Shown here one piece after another: positions 1,689-47,494 of a stretch of 64,000 nucleotides of DNA. The stretch's first letter is position 1, and each line of letters starts with the position of its first letter. The translations under genes were made by a program, and so were the position numbers. Under the pieces are notes generated by a model, which was not told the DNA's origin, made no database searches, and saw only the letters and a program-made list of their open reading frames with translations. The DNA is from Rikenellaceae bacterium (GTDB taxonomy: Bacteria > Bacteroidota > Bacteroidia > Bacteroidales > Rikenellaceae): contig JAFNVH010000078.1 in the NCBI GenBank assembly GCA_017379895.1, positions 142 through 64,141 of the forward strand. Direction: 5' to 3'.

Positions 1689-1759
1689 AGGTCTGAAGCG
1701 GATTCGAACCGCTGTAGCAGCTTTTGCAGAGCTGTGCCTAGCCACTCGGCCATCAGACC
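1689..1759 (-). tRNA. tRNA-Cys (anticodon GCA)
   Basis: Reverse complement: GGTCTGATGGCCGAGTGGCTAGGCACAGCTCTGCAAAAGCTGCTACAGCGGTTCGAATCCGCTTCAGACCT. The acceptor stem is GGTCTGA/TCAGACC. The anticodon stem-loop is CAGCT-CTGCAAA-AGCTG. The T-arm is GCGGTTCGAATCCGC. Total length is 71 nt. Confidence 0.9.
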
Positions 1760-3665: not shown

Positions 3666-5057
3666 ATGAAATACGACATTATAGTTATCGGTAGCGGCCC
3701 GGGTGGCTACGTGGCTGCCGTGCGTGCAGCTCAGGCTGGCAAGCGCACCGCAATCGTCGAGCGCGAAGCGCTGGGTGGAGTCTGCCTAAATTGGGGCTGT
3801 ATCCCCACGAAGGCTCTTTTGAAGAGCGCGTCGGTGTTCCATTACGTTAAGAATGCTGCTACTTACGGTATCGACATCGAGGGCGAGGCGAAGGCCGACA
3901 TCACAAAAATCGTGGCACGCAGTCGTGGCGTAGCCGAGACGATGAGCAAGGGTATCGACTTCCTGATGAAGAAGAACAAAATCGACGTTCTGCGCGGTCA
4001 CGGCTCGATCGAGAACAAGGGCGTCGTAGCGGTCGAGAATGAGGAAGGTCGCACGCTCTACGAGGCTGATCACATCATCTTGGCGACGGGCGCACGTCCG
4101 CGTCAAATGCCCTTTATTCCCGTCGATGGAGAGAAGATCATCACCTCGCGTGATGCTTTGGTTGTCAAGGAGTTGCCCGAGTCAATCGTAGTAATCGGAT
4201 CGGGTGCGATAGGTAGCGAGTTTGCATTCTTTTTCGCTCAGCTGGGCGTCAAGGTGACTATCGTCGAGTACCTGCCCAACCTTATGCCGCTCGAAGACGA
4301 GGAGGTGTCGAAGACAATGGAGCGTGCCTTCCGCAAGATGCGCGCAACGGTCTATACGGGCACAACCGTCAAGGCTGCACGTGTCAATGACGAGGGTCGT
4401 TGCGAGGTAGATATCGAGGGAAAGAAGGGCGCCGAGACTCTCGTTGCAGATATGGTTTTGGCGGCTGTCGGTATCAAAACCAACACCGAAAACATCGGTT
4501 TGGAGAAGGTTGGTATCGAGTTGGATCGCGACAAAATCAAGGTTGACGAGCACTACCAGACGGCTGTCGAGGGCATCTACGCCATTGGCGATTTGATCCC
4601 GACACCCGCGTTGGCACACGTCGCGTCAGCCGAGGCAATTCACTGTATTGATGCAATTTGCGGTCGCTCACCTCAACCCGTAGATTACTCAACTATTCCC
4701 TCGTGTGTTTACACCTCGCCCGAGGTTGCATCGGTCGGCCTTACCGAAAAGCAGGCGACCGATAAAGGTATCGAGTTGAAGGTTGGTCGATTCCAATTCA
4801 CCGCATCGGGCAAGGCGGCTGCGGCAGGCGAGCGAGACGGTTTCGTCAAGCTGCTCTTCGACGCCGCGACCGACAAATTGATTGGTGCGCATTTCGTCGG
4901 AATGAACGTAACCGAGATGATCGCCGAGCCGACCGTAGCGAAAGCTTTGGGTGCAACGGCAGAGGTGCTGGCTCATACAATCCATCCGCACCCGACTATG
5001 AACGAGGCTGTAATGGAGGCCGCCGAGGCTGCATTGGGTCACGCAATTCACGGATAA
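3666..5057 (+). CDS. lpdA: dihydrolipoyl dehydrogenase
   Basis: Contains the FAD-binding GSGPGGY motif, the redox-active disulfide GGVCLNWGCIPTK, and a C-terminal HPHPT(M)NE dimerisation motif. Confidence 0.9.
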   Translation: MKYDIIVIGSGPGGYVAAVRAAQAGKRTAIVEREALGGVCLNWGCIPTKALLKSASVFHYVKNAATYGIDIEGEAKADITKIVARSRGVAETMSKGIDFLMKKNKIDVLRGHGSIENKGVVAVENEEGRTLYEADHIILATGARPRQMPFIPVDGEKIITSRDALVVKELPESIVVIGSGAIGSEFAFFFAQLGVKVTIVEYLPNLMPLEDEEVSKTMERAFRKMRATVYTGTTVKAARVNDEGRCEVDIEGKKGAETLVADMVLAAVGIKTNTENIGLEKVGIELDRDKIKVDEHYQTAVEGIYAIGDLIPTPALAHVASAEAIHCIDAICGRSPQPVDYSTIPSCVYTSPEVASVGLTEKQATDKGIELKVGRFQFTASGKAAAAGERDGFVKLLFDAATDKLIGAHFVGMNVTEMIAEPTVAKALGATAEVLAHTIHPHPTMNEAVMEAAEAALGHAIHG

Positions 5058-5082
5058 GCGAGATCAAAAAATATTAGCAAAA

Positions 5083-5118
5083 ACGCTCGATTTCTTTGAA
5101 AATCGGGCGTTTTTATTT
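5083..5118 (+). terminator. rho-independent terminator after lpdA
   Basis: An 11-bp stem, ACGCTCGATTT / AAATCGGGCGT (one G-U pair), is followed by TTTTATTT. Confidence 0.7.
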
Positions 5119-5174
5119 GGTTTTCCAATAGTTTTTTTATCTTTGCAAAAATCAACCTTAATTACAAAAAAACT

Positions 5175-5645
5175 ATGAAAACGACAACCAAACTTTTACT
5201 CGCCATTTTGATTGCAACTATGGCGGTTGGACAAGCGACGGCTGCCGAGAAAAAGAGAGATTCACGCAAAAAAAAACGAGAGCAGGCATTTCTGCTCGAC
5301 ACCGTTGGCCGAGAAACAATGACATTAGATGACGGCACGGTGATTTACGCCGCTTATTTTAAGGACAAAACGAAACACTCGATGGTGGACTACCGCACGT
5401 GGGTACAACAGAGGGCGAAGTATCCGAAAGGCAGTGCAGCCAAAGGAAAAGTACGAATCGATTTTGTAGTCGAAAAGGATGGAAGTGTGACCGTCGCCGA
5501 TGTGCCATTCTCGGCTGATCCGGCACTAACTGAGGCTGTTATAGACGTATTGAATCGTTCACCCAAGTGGCACCCCGCAGTCAGCCTTGATGGCAAGGAG
5601 TTCTACAAAATAAGATACACTCTAAATCTGATGTTCCAATACTAA
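5175..5645 (+). CDS. TonB C-terminal-domain-like secreted protein
   Basis: A signal peptide is followed by ...YPKGSAAKGKVRIDFVVEKDGSVTVADV..., which resembles the TonB_C fold signature. The coding region contains an A9 run (5268-5276). Confidence 0.5.
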   Translation: MKTTTKLLLAILIATMAVGQATAAEKKRDSRKKKREQAFLLDTVGRETMTLDDGTVIYAAYFKDKTKHSMVDYRTWVQQRAKYPKGSAAKGKVRIDFVVEKDGSVTVADVPFSADPALTEAVIDVLNRSPKWHPAVSLDGKEFYKIRYTLNLMFQY

Positions 5646-27420: not shown

Positions 27421-27882
27421 ATGCGAGAAAAACTACTAAAATTGATGAAGAGCGAAAAACTCTCATCAAGCCGTTTGGCAGAAATGCTCGAAATTCAGCC
27501 ATCGAGTATCTCTCATATTCTCTCAGGAAGAAATAAACCCAGCTTCGATTTTCTGGTTAAGATTCTGCGTCGTTTCCCGACACTGAATCCTGATTGGCTA
27601 TTGCTCGATGCTGAGCAGATGTATCGTTCGAGCGACAACCTGGAACAGCGACTTGGCAACACCAACCACAAAGAGTCGCAGTCACAACACAACGCGACTC
27701 CAAGTGCGGATCAGCTGTCGAGCAGCCGTGAACAGTCGACCGAACAGCCAAAAGAAAATTCGACGAATCGACCAATGCAAAACATTGGGAATTTGCCCGT
27801 GCAGTCAAAACCCAATGCAGACATTGAACGTGTAATTGTTCTTTACTCCGACAAATCATTCGAGGCATTTTATCTCAAATAA
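27421..27882 (+). CDS. XRE-type helix-turn-helix transcriptional regulator
   Basis: MREKLLKLMKSEKLSSSRLAEMLEIQPSSISHILSGRNKPSFDFLVKILRRFPTLNPDWLL is the common Bacteroidota HTH_XRE pattern. It is followed by a Q/S-rich linker and a short C-terminal segment. The track's start at 27415 is a GTG; I prefer the ATG at 27421, given the promoter position. Confidence 0.7.
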   Translation: MREKLLKLMKSEKLSSSRLAEMLEIQPSSISHILSGRNKPSFDFLVKILRRFPTLNPDWLLLDAEQMYRSSDNLEQRLGNTNHKESQSQHNATPSADQLSSSREQSTEQPKENSTNRPMQNIGNLPVQSKPNADIERVIVLYSDKSFEAFYLK

Positions 27883-28077
27883 TGCCCAAACACATTACGC
27901 GGAATAATATATATATACAAATAAATAGGTGTATTTTTTGTAGATATAGGCGAATTTTTTTTGCGACAGAGGAGAGGACGGGTCGACAAATGTAAACGGA
28001 AAGCGACACCTAATTACAACAATTAACACGTATTTCACAAGTGAAAACACTCCAAGGACGGTTAAATATTTGAATTA

Positions 28078-28486
28078 AGGCGGCGCAGACCTCAACGGTA
28101 CGGGGTTTGCGCTGTTCAATTATTGGACCTACCAAACGGCAAAAATAGGTAGACGCGGGTGCGAGGGCGTTTACGCCCGAGCGCGTGGGCGGCGAGAGCC
28201 GCCGTCGGCAAGGAGGCGGGCACAACCCGCCGACGCGCAGCGCGAGGGACGGAGCAAGCAGGGCGCAGCGCGCGCAGCGACGCCGCGGAGCGATAGCGAC
28301 GCCCCGAGCGCGGAGCGTATGCCGACACACGGCGGGCGGCGGGGGCGAGCGCGGAGCGCGGCGCAACGCCGCAGAAAAAAACCCCGCGCCCGCCCCGAGA
28401 AACGAGGCGCAGCGAGGGGCTGCATATACTCGACCGATGCGCTGCCCGCGCTTTGAAATCCTGCGCGGGCGAGCGACGGGCGCAAA
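28078..28486. other. non-coding GC-rich hairpin cluster (function unknown: structured RNA, ssDNA origin or packaging signal, or a REP/BIME-like array)
   Basis: My hand count over 28151-28420 gives 208/270 G+C (~77%), with A=53, T=9, G=117 and C=91 on the + strand. The hairpins I read are:
- GGGCG-TTTA-CGCCC (28165-28178)
- GGCGGC-GAGA-GCCGCC (28188-28203)
- GGCGGG-CACAA-CCCGCC (28215-28231)
- GCCG-ACACA-CGGC (28321-28333)
- GCGGCG-CAA-CGCCGC (28358-28372)
- a long imperfect hairpin at 28382-28419
- GCCCGCGC-11nt-GCGCGGGC (28444-28470)
- GCGCAGACC / GGTTTGCGC (28083-28112)
The 12-mer GAGCGCGGAGCG occurs twice (28306-28317 and 28347-28358), and AGCGACGCC also occurs twice. Confidence 0.6.
28375..28419 (-). 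terminator. possible rho-independent terminator of the 274-aa/74-aa operon
   Basis: On the - strand an imperfect GC hairpin (28419 to 28382) is followed by T7 (28381 to 28375). It lies about 70 nt downstream of the 74-aa stop. Confidence 0.45.
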
Positions 28487-28711
28487 CTATTTGACGGGGA
28501 CGCAATAGGTCACACGCTGTTCGAGCGGGGTCAATTCATCGAATTCGATTGGGTCGATAGTCGAGAGGTCTATTACGGTTGAGGTCGAGCGTCCGAGGCA
28601 TTTCATTTCGGGGAAATATGAAACCGCCATACCGTCGCAAATACGTATAGGCGCATTTTGCAGACCGTTAGCGACGGCATAATTATACAACATTTTGGGA
28701 GTTATTAACAT
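28487..28711 (-). CDS. hypothetical protein (74 aa), translationally coupled to the upstream ORF
   Basis: The ATG at 28711 lies 2 nt after the TAA (28716-28714) of the 274-aa ORF. I recognise no family. Sequence: MLITPKMLYNYAVANGLQNAPIRICDGMAVSYFPEMKCLGRSTSTVIDLSTIDPIEFDELTPLEQRVTYCVPVK. Confidence 0.45.
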   Translation of the reverse strand: MLITPKMLYNYAVANGLQNAPIRICDGMAVSYFPEMKCLGRSTSTVIDLSTIDPIEFDELTPLEQRVTYCVPVK

Positions 28712-28713
28712 AG

Positions 28714-29538
28714 TTATAAAATATTTGGGTTATTATATGCCGAGCCAAACGCTTGGAAATGTTTATATCTCAACGGCGAAAAATACGCATCTTCAAAACT
28801 TAACTCATATTCTTCGTTTTCGAAATCCTTATCCCTATAAATATGCAGGTACGATGAACCGAGAAATGAAATTTGTTCGATATCGTCCCGCAAATCTTCA
28901 ATCGCAATGCGCAGCGGCGCAATAATCTTTGTAGTAGTGGAGCCGACCGCTGCGACCTCTATAATATTATCGTCGAGCGTGCGAATATATGGAGTTTCAA
29001 ACGGGAAACAATTTTTATAAACCACACGCAAACGAGCCTCAACGCTGCGGGTATATTTGTAGCGGTCGCGGGAGTTGTTACCGTGTTTTTGTATATAGAT
29101 ATGAAATTTGTTCCAACGATTAGAAAAATATTTATCAGTAGAGGCGAGGCGATGAGCAAAAAGGGCAGTAGTATAAGCGTCCGAAAAAACAATATCGGAA
29201 ATGTAATGCCAACAGCCATTTTTGCGGCGGGCGAGGTTGCACATTCTTACGCCGCTAAATCGTTGGGCGCGTAAATGACGATTTTTGTTACATTGTTTCA
29301 TAAGCGACGGGAACACCTGCACCGCATCGAGAGCGTCTTGACCCGTAGCCTTGAAAGTAATACGCCAACTTGACGGGTAATAATCGAGGGCACGTTCAAG
29401 GCACGAACGATGATACTCAAAACCTTTATACTGATTTAGATTATTAAACACTGCAAACGCACGTTTTTTGCCCGTGCGACGCAGTAACTCGGGGCGAGGC
29501 TTAGGCAATTCGCTAACCTCTCTAAGTCGTTTAGTCAT
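28714..29538 (-). CDS. hypothetical protein (274 aa); a weak, eyeballed resemblance to rolling-circle replication initiators is not established
   Basis: This is a long ORF in an AT-rich context. The track's start at 29574 is a TTG lying upstream of a -7-like box (TACCTTTG on the - strand, 29579 to 29572), so I use the ATG at 29538 (MTKRLREV...). Candidate motifs are WRITFKAT, CWHYISDIVF, KFHIYIQKH and GNNSRDRYKYTRSVE. None is a clean HUH or Rep_trans signature. Confidence 0.55.
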   Translation of the reverse strand: MTKRLREVSELPKPRPELLRRTGKKRAFAVFNNLNQYKGFEYHRSCLERALDYYPSSWRITFKATGQDALDAVQVFPSLMKQCNKNRHLRAQRFSGVRMCNLARRKNGCWHYISDIVFSDAYTTALFAHRLASTDKYFSNRWNKFHIYIQKHGNNSRDRYKYTRSVEARLRVVYKNCFPFETPYIRTLDDNIIEVAAVGSTTTKIIAPLRIAIEDLRDDIEQISFLGSSYLHIYRDKDFENEEYELSFEDAYFSPLRYKHFQAFGSAYNNPNIL

Positions 29539-29579
29539 AACGTGTTTGCTAATTAGATTATTTAGGTACTGCAAAGGTA

Positions 29580-29607
29580 ATGAAATAATATATATATTAT
29601 GTTAAAT
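29580..29607 (+). repeat. internal dif/cer-like site, inverted relative to the flanking repeats
   Basis: Reads ATGAAATAATA-TATATA-TTATGTTAAAT. The XerD-arm 11-mer at 29597-29607 is perfect. The 6-nt centre TATATA matches the E. coli dif centre TGTATA at 5 of 6 positions. The left arm is poor. Confidence 0.7.
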
Positions 29608-29734
29608 TAGCGTATTCATATATAAAATATAGGGGAGCGCTTGTGCAGGTGATTTGAGTGCACCTCTTCGGCGGATTTGCTGCGATGATGAGCAGATACT
29701 CTTCTGGTAAATTTGAAAGTTGAATAGCACCTCT

Positions 29735-47355: not shown

Positions 47356-47362
47356 CAAAAAA

Positions 47363-47458
47363 GGGTAAGCTACTTATATCGCACCGCTACAACCACCTAC
47401 CCTTGCTTGCTTCCGCACCTGGGGGATTCAGTAGGAGCTGGTCGTATAAGACTTACCC
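47363..47458 (-). ncRNA. ffs: signal recognition particle RNA (4.5S type)
   Basis: Reverse complement: GGGTAAGTCTTATACGACCAGCTCCTACTGAATCCCCCAGGTGCGGAAGCAAGCAAGGGTAGGTGGTTGTAGCGGTGCGATATAAGTAGCTTACCC. It forms one long hairpin with complementary ends. The domain IV apex CAGGUGCGGAAGCAAGCAAGG parallels E. coli CAGGUCCGGAAGGAAGCAGCCAAGG, including the GGAA tetraloop. A canonical promoter lies just upstream on the - strand. Confidence 0.8.
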
Positions 47459-47463
47459 GAGTG

Positions 47464-47494
47464 CAAATGTACGGATTTTTCTTATATTTGCAAA
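47464..47494 (-). promoter_or_regulatory. promoter of the SRP RNA
   Basis: On the - strand, TTTG (47494 to 47491) is separated by a 19-nt spacer from TACATTTG (47471 to 47464). The RNA 5' end lies 6 nt downstream. A + strand TATATTTG (47484-47491) for mltG overlaps it. Confidence 0.65.

What the first reader, a model, noticed from the sequence alone, without database searches (positions are those of the whole stretch)
28078..28486. An extreme GC-rich, T-depleted hairpin cluster with no credible coding potential inside an AT-rich islet
**Seen in the sequence**
- By my hand count, 28151-28420 is ~77% G+C, set in a neighbourhood that is visibly AT-rich.
- The + strand has only 9 T against 53 A, and 117 G against 91 C.
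- At least eight GC stems are present.
- Their loops and linkers are A-rich on the + strand: GAGA, CACAA, CAA, ACACA, GAGAAACGA and an A7 linker.
- Short direct repeats occur: GAGCGCGGAGCG twice, 41 nt apart, and AGCGACGCC twice.
- Four of the six reading frames are open simultaneously. That is what stop-codon depletion at high GC produces, not evidence of a gene.

**Inference**
- G-C stems with unpaired adenines on one strand are characteristic of functional single-stranded nucleic-acid structure.
- The candidate roles are:
  - a structured ncRNA transcribed on the + strand
  - the strand-specific single-strand origin or packaging signal of an ssDNA replicon. Rolling-circle plasmids and filamentous phages have such hairpin-rich non-coding regions.
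  - on the - strand, a 3' UTR and terminator module of the 274/74-aa operon, since a hairpin plus T7 lies at 28419-28375
  - a cluster of REP/BIME-like palindromes, which typically sit between convergent genes
- I cannot match it to RNase P, tmRNA, SRP, 6S, group II intron domain V or any other RNA class I know.
Basis: partly seen in the sequence, partly recalled or inferred. Interest (0 to 1): 0.8.

Follow-up and report, generated by a model that had tools for sequence, protein, structure and literature searches.

The report
New large GC-rich structured RNA element
The GC-rich block is a real, conserved, non-coding hairpin-forming element (most likely a large structured RNA of a family not yet described) that always travels with two unknown protein genes in a small optional gene cassette of gut Rikenellaceae bacteria. 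The copy in this window has lost its most conserved 198 bases.

Summary

**What it is**
- It is non-coding. Indels are 1-2 nt and substitutions show no 3-periodicity.
- It is single-copy and present in more than 12 independent assemblies.
- It is as conserved as a housekeeping gene (79-91% nt), while the adjacent genes drift to 61-77%.
- Base pairing is maintained by compensatory changes: 14 pairs, against 4 or fewer in slid controls and 0/500 shuffles.
- Intact relatives are about 600 nt. The window copy lacks 198 nt, the family's best-conserved core.
- No Rfam family matches.

**Context**
- The element belongs to a 1.7-1.9 kb cassette: AT-rich leader, element, a 74-aa gene and a 274-aa gene.
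- The cassette is flanked by imperfect direct repeats and is present or absent among close strains at a hotspot after an XRE-HTH gene.
- A very distant homologue of the 274-aa protein (L114) carries a recognisably homologous, purine-rich element.
- A GCGGAG motif recurs 5-9 times per intact copy.

**Reading**
- Best: a new large structured ncRNA partnered with the two cassette proteins.
- The + strand is favoured but unproven, and the function is unknown.
- REP/BIME, coding sequence and assembly chimera are refuted.
- A 3'UTR or ssDNA role is not excluded.

The parts
27903..27953 (.). Left imperfect direct repeat (DR-L) at the cassette boundary. The identical 14-nt core AATAATATATATAT lies at 27903-27916.
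   Evidence: - The empty-site locus L107 matches the window up to 27936 and again from 29581. About 37 nt of L107 match both ends.
- A local alignment of the two window ends gives about 70% identity over about 52 nt.
27954..28073 (+). AT-rich leader inside the cassette, with blocks conserved across lineages: GACAAATGTAAAC, AATTACAACAAT, AAACACT and TAAATATTTGAA. It is a possible promoter or regulatory region for the element, but no perfect Bacteroidetes -7 box is present on the + strand.
   Evidence: - Alignment A1.
- The -7 box scan finds only aAnnTTTG at 28065-28072 on the + strand. Perfect TAnnTTTG boxes here are on the - strand.
28074..28368 (+). 5' domain of the structured GC-rich element. 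It holds the hairpins GGGCG-UUUA-CGCCC, GGCGGC-GAGA-GCCGCC and GGCGGG-CACAA-CCCGCC, the long-range helix GUCGGCA/UGCCGAC, and three GCGGAGCG motifs.
   Evidence: - 98% identical to L001 positions 1-324.
- Helices 4, 5, 6 and 7 are 100% paired across 10 sequences, with compensatory changes in helices 4 and 6.
28369..28371 (+). Deletion junction. 198 nt net (L001 element positions 325-525) are missing here. The missing stretch is the part best conserved across the family, including in the distant L114 copy.
   Evidence: - Alignments A1 and A2, gap at columns 334-550.
- blastn coordinates.
- L114 aligns best to exactly this core.
- No long repeat is seen at the junction, judged by eye.
28372..28486 (+). 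3' domain of the element. It holds the A7 run (28375-28381), CCCCGCGCCCGCCCC, the hairpin GCAGC-GAGGG-GCUGC (28406-28420), and the terminal hairpin GCCCGCGC...GCGCGGGC (28445-28471). It abuts the stop codon of the 74-aa gene. On the - strand it could double as the operon's 3'UTR/terminator.
   Evidence: - 93% identical to L001 positions 526-640.
- Helices 23-25 carry compensatory changes and two independent C-to-U changes that keep a pair as G-U only on the + strand.
- A terminator-like hit lies at 28424-28408 on the - strand.
- This part is retained even in the deletion allele L082.
28487..28711 (-). 74-aa cassette protein of unknown function. IRICDGMAVSYFP is invariant.
   Evidence: - 11 homologue clusters only, with no family hit.
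- The AF2 model has low confidence, pLDDT 51.
28714..29538 (-). 274-aa cassette protein of unknown function. Its core is a predicted tandem ferredoxin-like beta-alpha-beta-beta-alpha-beta fold, and its N-terminus is basic and disordered.
   Evidence: - 8 close clusters, and 25 representatives in 1.84 billion proteins, all about 270 aa.
- No Pfam, PHROG, PADLOC, NCBIfam or PDB hit.
- AF2 pLDDT 74.
29572..29579 (-). Bacteroidetes-type -7 promoter box TACCTTTG for the 274/74-aa operon.
   Evidence: A perfect TAnnTTTG at the same place in 7 homologous cassettes (window, L001, L002, L003, L007, L078, L079) and in L114. The L100 locus is cut off before this position.
29584..29636 (.). Right imperfect direct repeat (DR-R). 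The core lies at 29584-29597. The sequence to its right is the flank that directly follows the HTH gene in empty sites.

Best explanation
**What it is**
- The block is a truncated copy of a previously undescribed, large, GC-rich structured non-coding element. Intact copies are about 560-600 nt.
- It is most likely an RNA read from the window's + strand.
- It is one of three fixed components of a small accessory cassette. The others are a 74-94-aa protein and a ~270-aa protein predicted to have a tandem ferredoxin-like fold.

**Shown**
- It is non-coding.
- It is under purifying selection as strong as that on a housekeeping gene.
- Its helices are kept by compensatory changes.
- It co-occurs strictly with the two genes.
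- The cassette is gained or lost as a unit at a direct-repeat-flanked hotspot downstream of an XRE-HTH gene.
- The same trio recurs in a very divergent species.

**Inferred**
- The transcript folds into a multi-helix body of almost pure G-C stems with purine-rich (A/G) loops.
- It displays 5-9 GCGGAG(C)G motifs that serve as binding sites for the cassette protein(s), so that RNA and proteins act as one ribonucleoprotein.
- The strain-variable presence, the fast-evolving protein and the hotspot location make an accessory role the most likely output. Candidates are defence, competition, or mobility of the cassette.
- The window copy lacks the conserved core and is probably functionally impaired.
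For: **Reality**
- The element is present in Logan, ENA and GTDB assemblies from different samples.

**Constraint**
- Element identity between lineages is 79-91% nt. The HIT gene is 81-89%, HTH 70-77%, the 74-aa gene 74-86% and the 274-aa gene 61-72%.

**Non-coding**
- At least 13 indels of 1-2 nt.
- Variable sites by codon phase are 54/62/47.
- The longest open frame shifts between homologues.

**Structure**
- 143 consensus pairs are 97.5% paired.
- 14 pairs carry double changes, against 1-4 in six slid controls. 0 of 500 shuffles reach any of the five measures.
- Adding L114 gives 22 such pairs.
- Hairpin stems are swapped outright:
  - GGGCG/CGCCC becomes CCCG/CGGG in L078;
  - GUCGGCA/UGCCGAC becomes GCCGGCA/UGCCGGC in L078;
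  - one hairpin is lengthened by paired 2-nt insertions.

**Strand (+)**
- In the same helices the + strand has 27 G-U cells and 34 mismatches. The - strand has 11 and 50.
- One G-U in the GGCGC-AAN-GUGCC hairpin is kept even in L114.
- Tetraloops read GAGA, GAAA, GACA, GGCA and GGAA on +.
- Unpaired positions are 73-76% purine and only 5-9% U.

**Cassette**
- Wherever sequence exists downstream of a 274-family gene, the element is there. The 14 copies are the window, L001-5, L007, L019, L078-80, L100 and L114-115. L082 keeps a remnant.
- Six empty sites (L104, 105, 107, 109, 111, 112) lack the element and both genes.
- Direct repeats mark the boundary.

**Motif and databases**
- GCGGAGCG recurs 3-5 times per intact element, z = 4-7.
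- GCGGAG occurs 5-9 times per intact copy on + and 0 times on -. In L114, five of them sit 34-40 nt apart.
- No Rfam family matches at E<=1 in L001, L003, L007 or L114, nor above noise at E<=10 in the window.
Against: **Transcription and strand**
- No transcription data exist.
- No perfect Bacteroidetes -7 promoter lies upstream on the + strand. No + strand intrinsic terminator was found.
- The conserved operon promoter does point into the block on the - strand.
- Thermodynamic and SCI comparisons do not separate the strands: SCI is 0.72-0.76 on both.

**Limits of the covariation**
- It comes from only about 5 independent lineages.
- It cannot distinguish RNA from ssDNA.

**Dispensability**
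- Two alleles carry large internal deletions while both protein genes stay intact: the window (-198 nt) and L082 (-~430 nt).
- The element is therefore dispensable for viability and perhaps often lost.

**Protein link**
- Protein binding to GCGGAG motifs is pure inference.
- The 274-aa protein has no significant structural match.
- The 74-aa model is unreliable.

**Distribution**
- It is very narrow: one species among 185,579 GTDB representatives carries the tested 20-mer.
- There were no hits in JGI metagenomes or IMG/VR for two conserved words.
Confidence: 0.55

Rival explanations
1. The functional molecule is the - strand. The block would be a long, structured 3'UTR or 3'-derived RNA of the 274/74-aa operon. 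It would be transcribed from the conserved TACCTTTG promoter and would act as a terminator, a stabiliser or a processed RNA partner, in the way omega-RNAs lie downstream of tnpB.
For: - A perfect -7 promoter, conserved wherever the sequence reaches it, drives the operon toward the block.
- A strong hairpin immediately follows the stop codon of the small gene in every lineage, including L114.
- A hairpin plus U-rich tail, and a U7 run, lie on the - strand at 28424-28375.
- The 3' (operon-proximal) ~110-170 nt is the part retained in both deletion alleles.
- SCI is equal on both strands.
Against: - G-U against A-C counts favour + by 27 to 11.
- A conserved G-U would be a conserved A-C mismatch on -.
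- Loops would be UNNC and pyrimidine-rich, with only 5-9% A among unpaired bases. That is atypical for folded RNAs, which use unpaired A (the A-richness point is from general knowledge).
- The U7 run is absent in L078 and L114.
- A terminator does not need 600 nt conserved at 80-90%.
Confidence: 0.22
2. The structure acts at the DNA level. Hairpins would extrude from single-stranded or supercoiled DNA and serve as a recombination, replication or packaging signal for the cassette. Under this reading the cassette would be a tiny integrative or rolling-circle element and the 274-aa protein its Rep or recombinase.
For: - The cassette is only 1.7-1.9 kb, is flanked by direct repeats, and is precisely present or absent at a hotspot that holds another island in other strains.
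- Covariation and G-T wobble are equally compatible with ssDNA hairpins.
- The weak best viral Foldseek hits of the 274-aa model include replication-initiator proteins: E = 2e-3 to 0.1, TM about 0.2.
Against: - No HUH, Rep, integrase or transposase family hit in Pfam, PHROGs, NCBIfam or PADLOC.
- No HUH and Y motif pair is conserved in the alignment.
- There is no match in 50,697 phage or 72,556 plasmid records, nor in IMG/VR.
- There is one copy per genome, in the same chromosomal context in almost all assemblies. That does not fit an active mobile element.
- No circular contig was seen.
Confidence: 0.1
3. The block is non-functional: a GC-rich remnant of foreign DNA, a decayed minisatellite built by duplications of a GCGCGGAGCG unit, or an assembly artefact.
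For: - Short direct repeats are present, and L114 has a weak 34-nt period (2.2 copies, 79% matches).
- Large deletions occur in two alleles.
- Contigs often break at this block.
Against: - Independent assemblies agree on the sequence.
- Conservation equals that of a housekeeping gene across lineages in which neighbouring genes have diverged to 61-77%.
- Compensatory changes are far above the controls.
- Homology is retained next to a protein homologue so distant that it was found only with a profile, E = 3e-23.
- TRF finds no array in L001.
Confidence: 0.03
4. The block is a REP/BIME-type dispersed palindrome cluster, or it encodes an Arg/Ala/Gly-rich protein.
For: - It sits between convergent genes.
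- Four frames are open.
Against: - It is single-copy in the window.
- The conserved 20-mer gives one true locus among 185,579 species genomes. The other 69 hits are chance matches in high-GC genomes or coding sequence.
- Frames are broken by 1-2-nt indels, substitutions show no periodicity, and the ORFs have no family hit.
Confidence: 0.01

Closest known systems
OLE RNA with its partner proteins OapA/B/C (Firmicutes; PMC3413148, PMC12286853)
   Same: - About 600 nt and highly structured.
- Lineage-restricted.
- Genetically linked to dedicated small proteins of otherwise unknown family, with which it forms an RNP.
- Discovered as a conserved, unusually structured intergenic block.
   Different: - No sequence or structure match: Rfam finds no hit.
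- OLE is core in its hosts and co-oriented with oap genes. This element is strain-variable, sits convergent to its genes if it is on the + strand, is far more GC-rich and U-poor, and has repeated GCGGAG motifs.
ROOL and GOLLD large ornate RNAs (PMC5737381, PMC12286853)
   Same: - Large size (about 580-800 nt).
- Found in gut and rumen bacteria.
- Often located in accessory or prophage DNA.
- Function unknown.
   Different: - No Rfam match to RF03087 or RF01998 at E<=1.
- ROOL and GOLLD are not tied to a fixed protein pair and are typically near tRNAs in prophages.
- No phage genes are present here.
HEARO/omega-RNA with IscB, and other mobile-element RNAs (IS605 omega-RNA, IS110 bridge RNA)
   Same: A structured non-coding RNA at one end of a small, repeat-bounded cassette, next to the cassette's own protein gene.
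   Different: - The 274-aa protein has no RuvC, HNH, TnpB or DEDD domain.
- The cassette is single-copy in a fixed chromosomal site, not multi-copy.
- No Rfam HEARO or IS605-orfB hit.
Type III toxin-antitoxin RNAs (ToxI/ToxN, CptIN, TenpIN)
   Same: - An RNA with a recurring short unit. In L114, five GCGGAG motifs sit 34-40 nt apart.
- Linked to a protein gene in a strain-variable locus.
   Different: - The repeats are degenerate. TRF finds 2.2 copies at 79% in L114 and none in L001.
- The RNA is not upstream of the protein gene on the same strand.
- There is no PADLOC hit.
- Alleles that lose most of the RNA keep intact protein genes. That argues against an essential antitoxin.
Hairpin-rich intergenic region of filamentous phages and ssoA/ssoU of rolling-circle plasmids
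   Same: A strand-asymmetric, hairpin-dense, non-coding block of a few hundred nucleotides.
   Different: - No Rep or phage genes.
- Chromosomal and syntenic.
- No phage or plasmid similarity.

Membership tests
Any curated RNA family (Rfam 15: RNase P, tmRNA, 6S, SRP, group I/II introns, ROOL, GOLLD, OLE, HEARO, raiA, riboswitches, and others) | Covariance-model match at or near the family's gathering score. | tested here: not met
   - Window at gathering thresholds: only the SRP and a tRNA, both elsewhere.
- 27850-28750 at E<=10: only noise, the best being BcKCsr2 at 15.7 bits against a threshold of 40.
- Intact copies L001, L003, L007 and L114 at E<=1: no hit.
Structured non-coding RNA (generic) | Sequence conserved beyond the neutral expectation, with base pairs maintained by compensatory substitutions. 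| tested here: met
   - Element identity is 79-91% nt against 61-77% for adjacent genes.
- 14 doubly changed pairs against 4 or fewer in slid controls, and 0 of 500 shuffles.
- 22 such pairs once L114 is added.
Structured non-coding RNA (generic) | Transcribed as a discrete RNA from a defined strand. | not testable with these tools
   - No expression data are available.
- Indirect strand indicators favour +.
- Promoter evidence is missing on + and present on -.
Protein-coding sequence | A conserved reading frame, indels in multiples of 3, and third-position periodicity. | tested here: not met
   - At least 13 indels of 1-2 nt.
- Variable sites by phase are 54/62/47.
- The longest frame differs between homologues.
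- The ORFs have no Pfam hit.
REP/BIME dispersed palindromes | Many near-identical short copies per genome at gene ends. | tested here: not met
   - One copy in 64 kb.
- One true locus for the conserved 20-mer in 185,579 species genomes.
- Whole-genome copy number in the source genome itself could not be counted.
Intrinsic terminator of the 274/74 operon (- strand) | A GC hairpin immediately followed by a U tract, conserved among orthologous operons. | tested here: inconclusive
   - A hairpin with a weak U tail lies at 28424-28408.
- U7 lies at 28381-28375 and can be preceded by the CCCCUCGC/GCGCGGGG pairing, judged by eye.
- The U7 run is absent in L078 and L114.
Type III toxin-antitoxin | Near-identical tandem RNA repeats upstream of, and co-oriented with, an endoribonuclease toxin gene. 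| tested here: not met
   - TRF finds none in L001, and 2.2 copies at 79% in L114.
- The position and orientation differ.
- PADLOC finds none.
Rolling-circle or ssDNA replicon origin | An adjacent HUH Rep gene, and an extrachromosomal or phage context. | tested here: not met
   - No Rep family hit.
- No conserved HUH and Y motifs.
- No phage or plasmid match.
- ssDNA intermediates themselves are not testable here.
Site-specifically inserted or excised cassette | Filled and empty alleles with the same junction, and direct repeats at the ends. | tested here: met
   - Empty sites: L104, 105, 107, 109, 111 and 112.
- The repeats at 27903-27953 and 29584-29636 share a 14-nt core.
- Whether the cause is insertion, excision or repeat-mediated deletion is not resolved.

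The most novel reading that the evidence does not exclude
The cassette is a new kind of RNA-protein system. In it, a ~600-nt almost pure G-C/purine RNA carrying 5-9 GCGGAG sites scaffolds or programmes the tandem-ferredoxin-fold 274-aa protein and its small partner. The system would act in phage defence, inter-strain competition or cassette mobility, with no homology to retrons, CRISPR, TA or OMEGA systems.
Probability: 0.3. Interest if true: 0.85.

Novelty: new variant of a known kind. Interest (0 to 1): 0.7.

Why it matters
**Why the class is rare**
- Bacterial structured RNAs longer than about 500 nt are very few: rRNAs, OLE, GOLLD, ROOL and a handful more.
- Each has opened new biology. 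Recent examples are RNA-only nanocages (PMC12286853) and RNA-guided nucleases.

**What this candidate offers**
- It comes from abundant but poorly studied gut Rikenellaceae.
- It has an extreme composition: about 80% GC and 3-9% U.
- It has a recurring motif and two dedicated orphan proteins.
- Natural presence/absence and deletion alleles exist, so its function is directly testable by comparing strains.

**Practical point**
- Extreme-GC blocks break short-read assemblies. Elements like this are therefore systematically under-sampled.

Tried and rejected
**Searches that found nothing**
- Rfam, at gathering thresholds and at permissive E-values, on the window and on four intact homologues.
- Pfam, PHROGs, PADLOC and NCBIfam on the 74-, 274- and 181-aa proteins and on the four spurious ORFs. 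Only the HTH gene was recognised.
- PDB by sequence profile, and Foldseek against PDB and BFVD with the 274-aa model. No hit at E<1e-3. The weak ferredoxin-like, Cmr1 and Rep-like hits are not interpretable.
- The AF2 model of the 74-aa protein was too poor to search.
- Exact-word scans:
  - Genome contigs gave 1 true hit and 69 chance hits;
  - Metagenome contigs, two words, gave 0 true hits;
  - Viral contigs, two words, gave none.
- blastn against the phage and plasmid collections gave none.

**Tests that did not discriminate**
- Strand by thermodynamics and SCI showed no discrimination.
- GGA (CsrA-type) enrichment was absent, z about 0. Only GGAG and GCGGAGCG are enriched.
- TRF gave a weak tandem-repeat signal in L114 only.
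- The σ70-type promoter scan is uninformative for Bacteroidetes.

**Ideas dropped or left open**
- My early idea that the 274-aa protein carries HUH/Y Rep motifs was dropped, because those residues are not conserved.
- The last context look-up, for a very distant 265-aa homologue, returned contigs that end 12 nt after the gene. The presence of an element there is unknown.
- The literature search found the GC-rich-IGR rationale but no description of this element.
Full report
**1. The observation**

- 28151-28420 holds A53 C91 G117 T9, which is 77.0% GC. The 200 nt before it are 33.5% GC and the window average is 49.7%.
- No other 150-nt window in the 64 kb exceeds 68% GC. T falls to 2% per 150 nt, against a 1st percentile of 14%.
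- Both short direct repeats are present.
- Four ORFs of more than 100 aa overlap the block. None has a family hit.
- The 409-nt stretch folds better than dinucleotide shuffles on both strands: z = -3.95 on + and -2.97 on -.
- The hairpin count in 28151-28420 is ordinary for this composition: 6, against 5.6 in shuffles.
- The host is a Bacteroidales bacterium (Bacteroidales small SRP RNA). An identical 74-aa protein is annotated in a Rikenellaceae MAG.

**2. Homologues and the deletion**

The neighbouring 274-aa protein has only 8 close clusters. Their contigs, plus one GTDB genome found with a conserved 20-mer, give syntenic loci. That genome is an uncultured Alistipes sp., L019. The gene order is relA - HIT - HTH - [block] - 74 aa - 274 aa.
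- In these loci the block is about 600 nt long.
- The window copy lacks 198 nt net. L001 element positions 325-525 are replaced by 28369-28371.
- The junction has no long repeat, so I read it as a real deletion and not an assembler collapse. This is an inference.
- Another allele, L082, has lost the 5' ~430 nt.
- The block exists in many independent assemblies, so it is not a chimera.

**3. Non-coding, constrained and structured**

- Between lineages the element is 79-91% identical. That matches the HIT gene (81-89% nt) and is far above HTH (70-77%), the 74-aa gene (74-86%) and the 274-aa gene (61-72%).
- It carries at least 13 indels of 1-2 nt. Its 163 variable sites fall 54/62/47 by phase. 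It is not coding.
- RNAalifold gives 143 pairs.
  - On these, 97.5% of cells pair.
  - 14 pairs show double changes, against 1-4 in six slid controls.
  - None of 500 shuffles reaches any measure.
- Concrete cases:
  - GGGCG/CGCCC is replaced by CCCG/CGGG in L078.
  - GUCGGCA/UGCCGAC becomes GCCGGCA/UGCCGGC in L078.
  - One hairpin is lengthened by matched 2-nt insertions.

**4. Strand**

The evidence favours + moderately.
- For +:
  - In the same helices the + strand has 27 G-U cells and 34 mismatches. The - strand has 11 and 50.
  - Two independent C-to-U changes in the GCAGC/GCUGC hairpin keep pairing only on +.
  - One G-U is conserved even in the distant L114 copy.
  - The variable tetraloop reads GAGA, GAAA, GACA or GGCA.
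  - Unpaired bases are 73-76% purine with 5-9% U. This is the usual pattern for folded RNAs (general knowledge).
- Against +:
  - SCI is equal on both strands.
  - There is no perfect TAnnTTTG box on +.
  - A perfect, conserved box drives the 274/74 operon toward the block on -.

**5. The block is one part of an optional cassette**

Homologues of the HTH protein are numerous, and their contigs are revealing.
- Six loci have HTH followed directly by the downstream gene. They have neither the block nor the two genes.
- Three loci carry a different island at the same junction.
- Several contigs simply end at the junction.
- Comparison of empty and filled sites shows imperfect direct repeats at 27903-27953 and 29584-29636, with the core AATAATATATATAT.
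- The cassette therefore spans about 27.92-29.60 kb.
- The element accompanies the 274-family gene in all 14 loci where the sequence extends far enough. It is absent from all 9 loci without the gene.

**6. A distant relative**

A profile search of 1.84 billion proteins finds only 25 representatives of the 274-aa family.
- One of them (E = 3e-23) lies in a 40%-GC genome, locus L114, in the same HIT-HTH context.
- It is followed by a 94-aa homologue of the small protein, then by a 570-nt block with G41 A26 C25 T9.
- That block aligns to the central core and the 3' end of our element, at 72% over about 290 nt.
- The trio is thus conserved over a large distance. The region missing from the window is the family's core.
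- GCGGAG occurs 5-9 times per intact copy, on the + strand only. GCGGAGCG is enriched with z = 4-7.
- In L114, five motifs are spaced 34-40 nt apart.

**7. The proteins**

- The 274-aa model (pLDDT 74) is a basic disordered tail followed by a tandem beta-alpha-beta-beta-alpha-beta fold.
- No significant PDB or BFVD match exists.
- The 74-aa model is unreliable.

**8. Interpretation**

- The best reading is a new large structured ncRNA that works with the two cassette proteins. The repeated motif is the likely protein-binding site. This is an inference.
- Both deletion alleles keep intact protein genes. The RNA is therefore not an essential antitoxin.
- The patchy distribution, the fast-evolving protein and the hotspot location point to an accessory role such as defence, competition or mobility.
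- Rivals that remain are a - strand 3'UTR-derived RNA and a DNA-level signal.
- REP/BIME, coding sequence, chimera and all Rfam families are excluded by test.

**9. Comparison and novelty**

- It resembles OLE with its Oap proteins, or HEARO with IscB, in logic: a large RNA plus dedicated proteins. It resembles ROOL and GOLLD in size and habitat (PMC3413148, PMC5737381, PMC12286853).
- It is a member of none of them.
- It was found by the same cue that the GC-rich-IGR pipeline exploits (PMC6429828, PMC11109978).
- I found no description of it in the literature.

Noticed in passing
L106 4463-5377; L108 and L110 equivalent positions: In other strains the same hotspot, right after the HTH gene (junction after GAAATAATATA), holds a different island of many small ORFs, including an RHH-like 61-aa protein. 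L106 ~4950-5300 holds another GC-rich, hairpin-looking non-coding stretch with no Rfam match.
   Followed up: partly
L101, L102, L103, L113 (ends ~10-80 nt after HTH); L118, L119 (ends 12 nt after the 265-aa gene): Independent assemblies break exactly where the GC-rich element would begin. Extreme-GC blocks like this one are probably under-represented in short-read assemblies.
   Followed up: no
window 28714-29538 against L002, L007, L079: Divergence across the locus is mosaic. For the window against L002: HIT 92% nt, element 93%, but the 274-aa gene only 72%. For L007 against L079: HIT 87%, HTH 73%, but element 97% and the 274-aa gene 91%. The cassette or its parts recombine between strains, and the 274-aa gene evolves unusually fast.
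   Followed up: partly
window 27987-27994 and 28140-28147 (- strand): Perfect Bacteroidetes -7 boxes (TACATTTG and TATTTTTG) lie on the - strand inside the cassette leader and the element's 5' end. They point out of the cassette toward the 3' end of the HTH gene. They are conserved in some lineages. They could be outward or antisense promoters, or chance matches in AT-rich DNA.
   Followed up: no
L114 2590-2615 and 4690-4712: In the distant L114 cassette the two ends carry AATTTAACATAA(G/T)(A/T)TATAT in inverted orientation. In the window's lineage the ends read as direct repeats around a near-palindromic core.
   Followed up: no
L118 4-1464: The most distant 274-family homologue examined (265 aa) sits in a different context, next to znuA and an ABC ATPase. 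A 486-aa Cas12f1-like_TNB (TnpB-like) gene lies ~2.5 kb away.
   Followed up: no
window 47359-47465 (-) and 1689-1759 (-): Bacteroidales small SRP RNA (111.7 bits) and a tRNA. They are the only Rfam matches at gathering thresholds in the window.
   Followed up: no
window 28209-28215 (AAGGAGG); L001 element positions ~459-464: Two copies of GGCAAGGAG, a perfect Shine-Dalgarno-like AAGGAG(G), are invariant in all intact copies. GGAG overall is enriched (z = 2-3.3). This is curious in a phylum that largely does not use SD pairing.
   Followed up: partly
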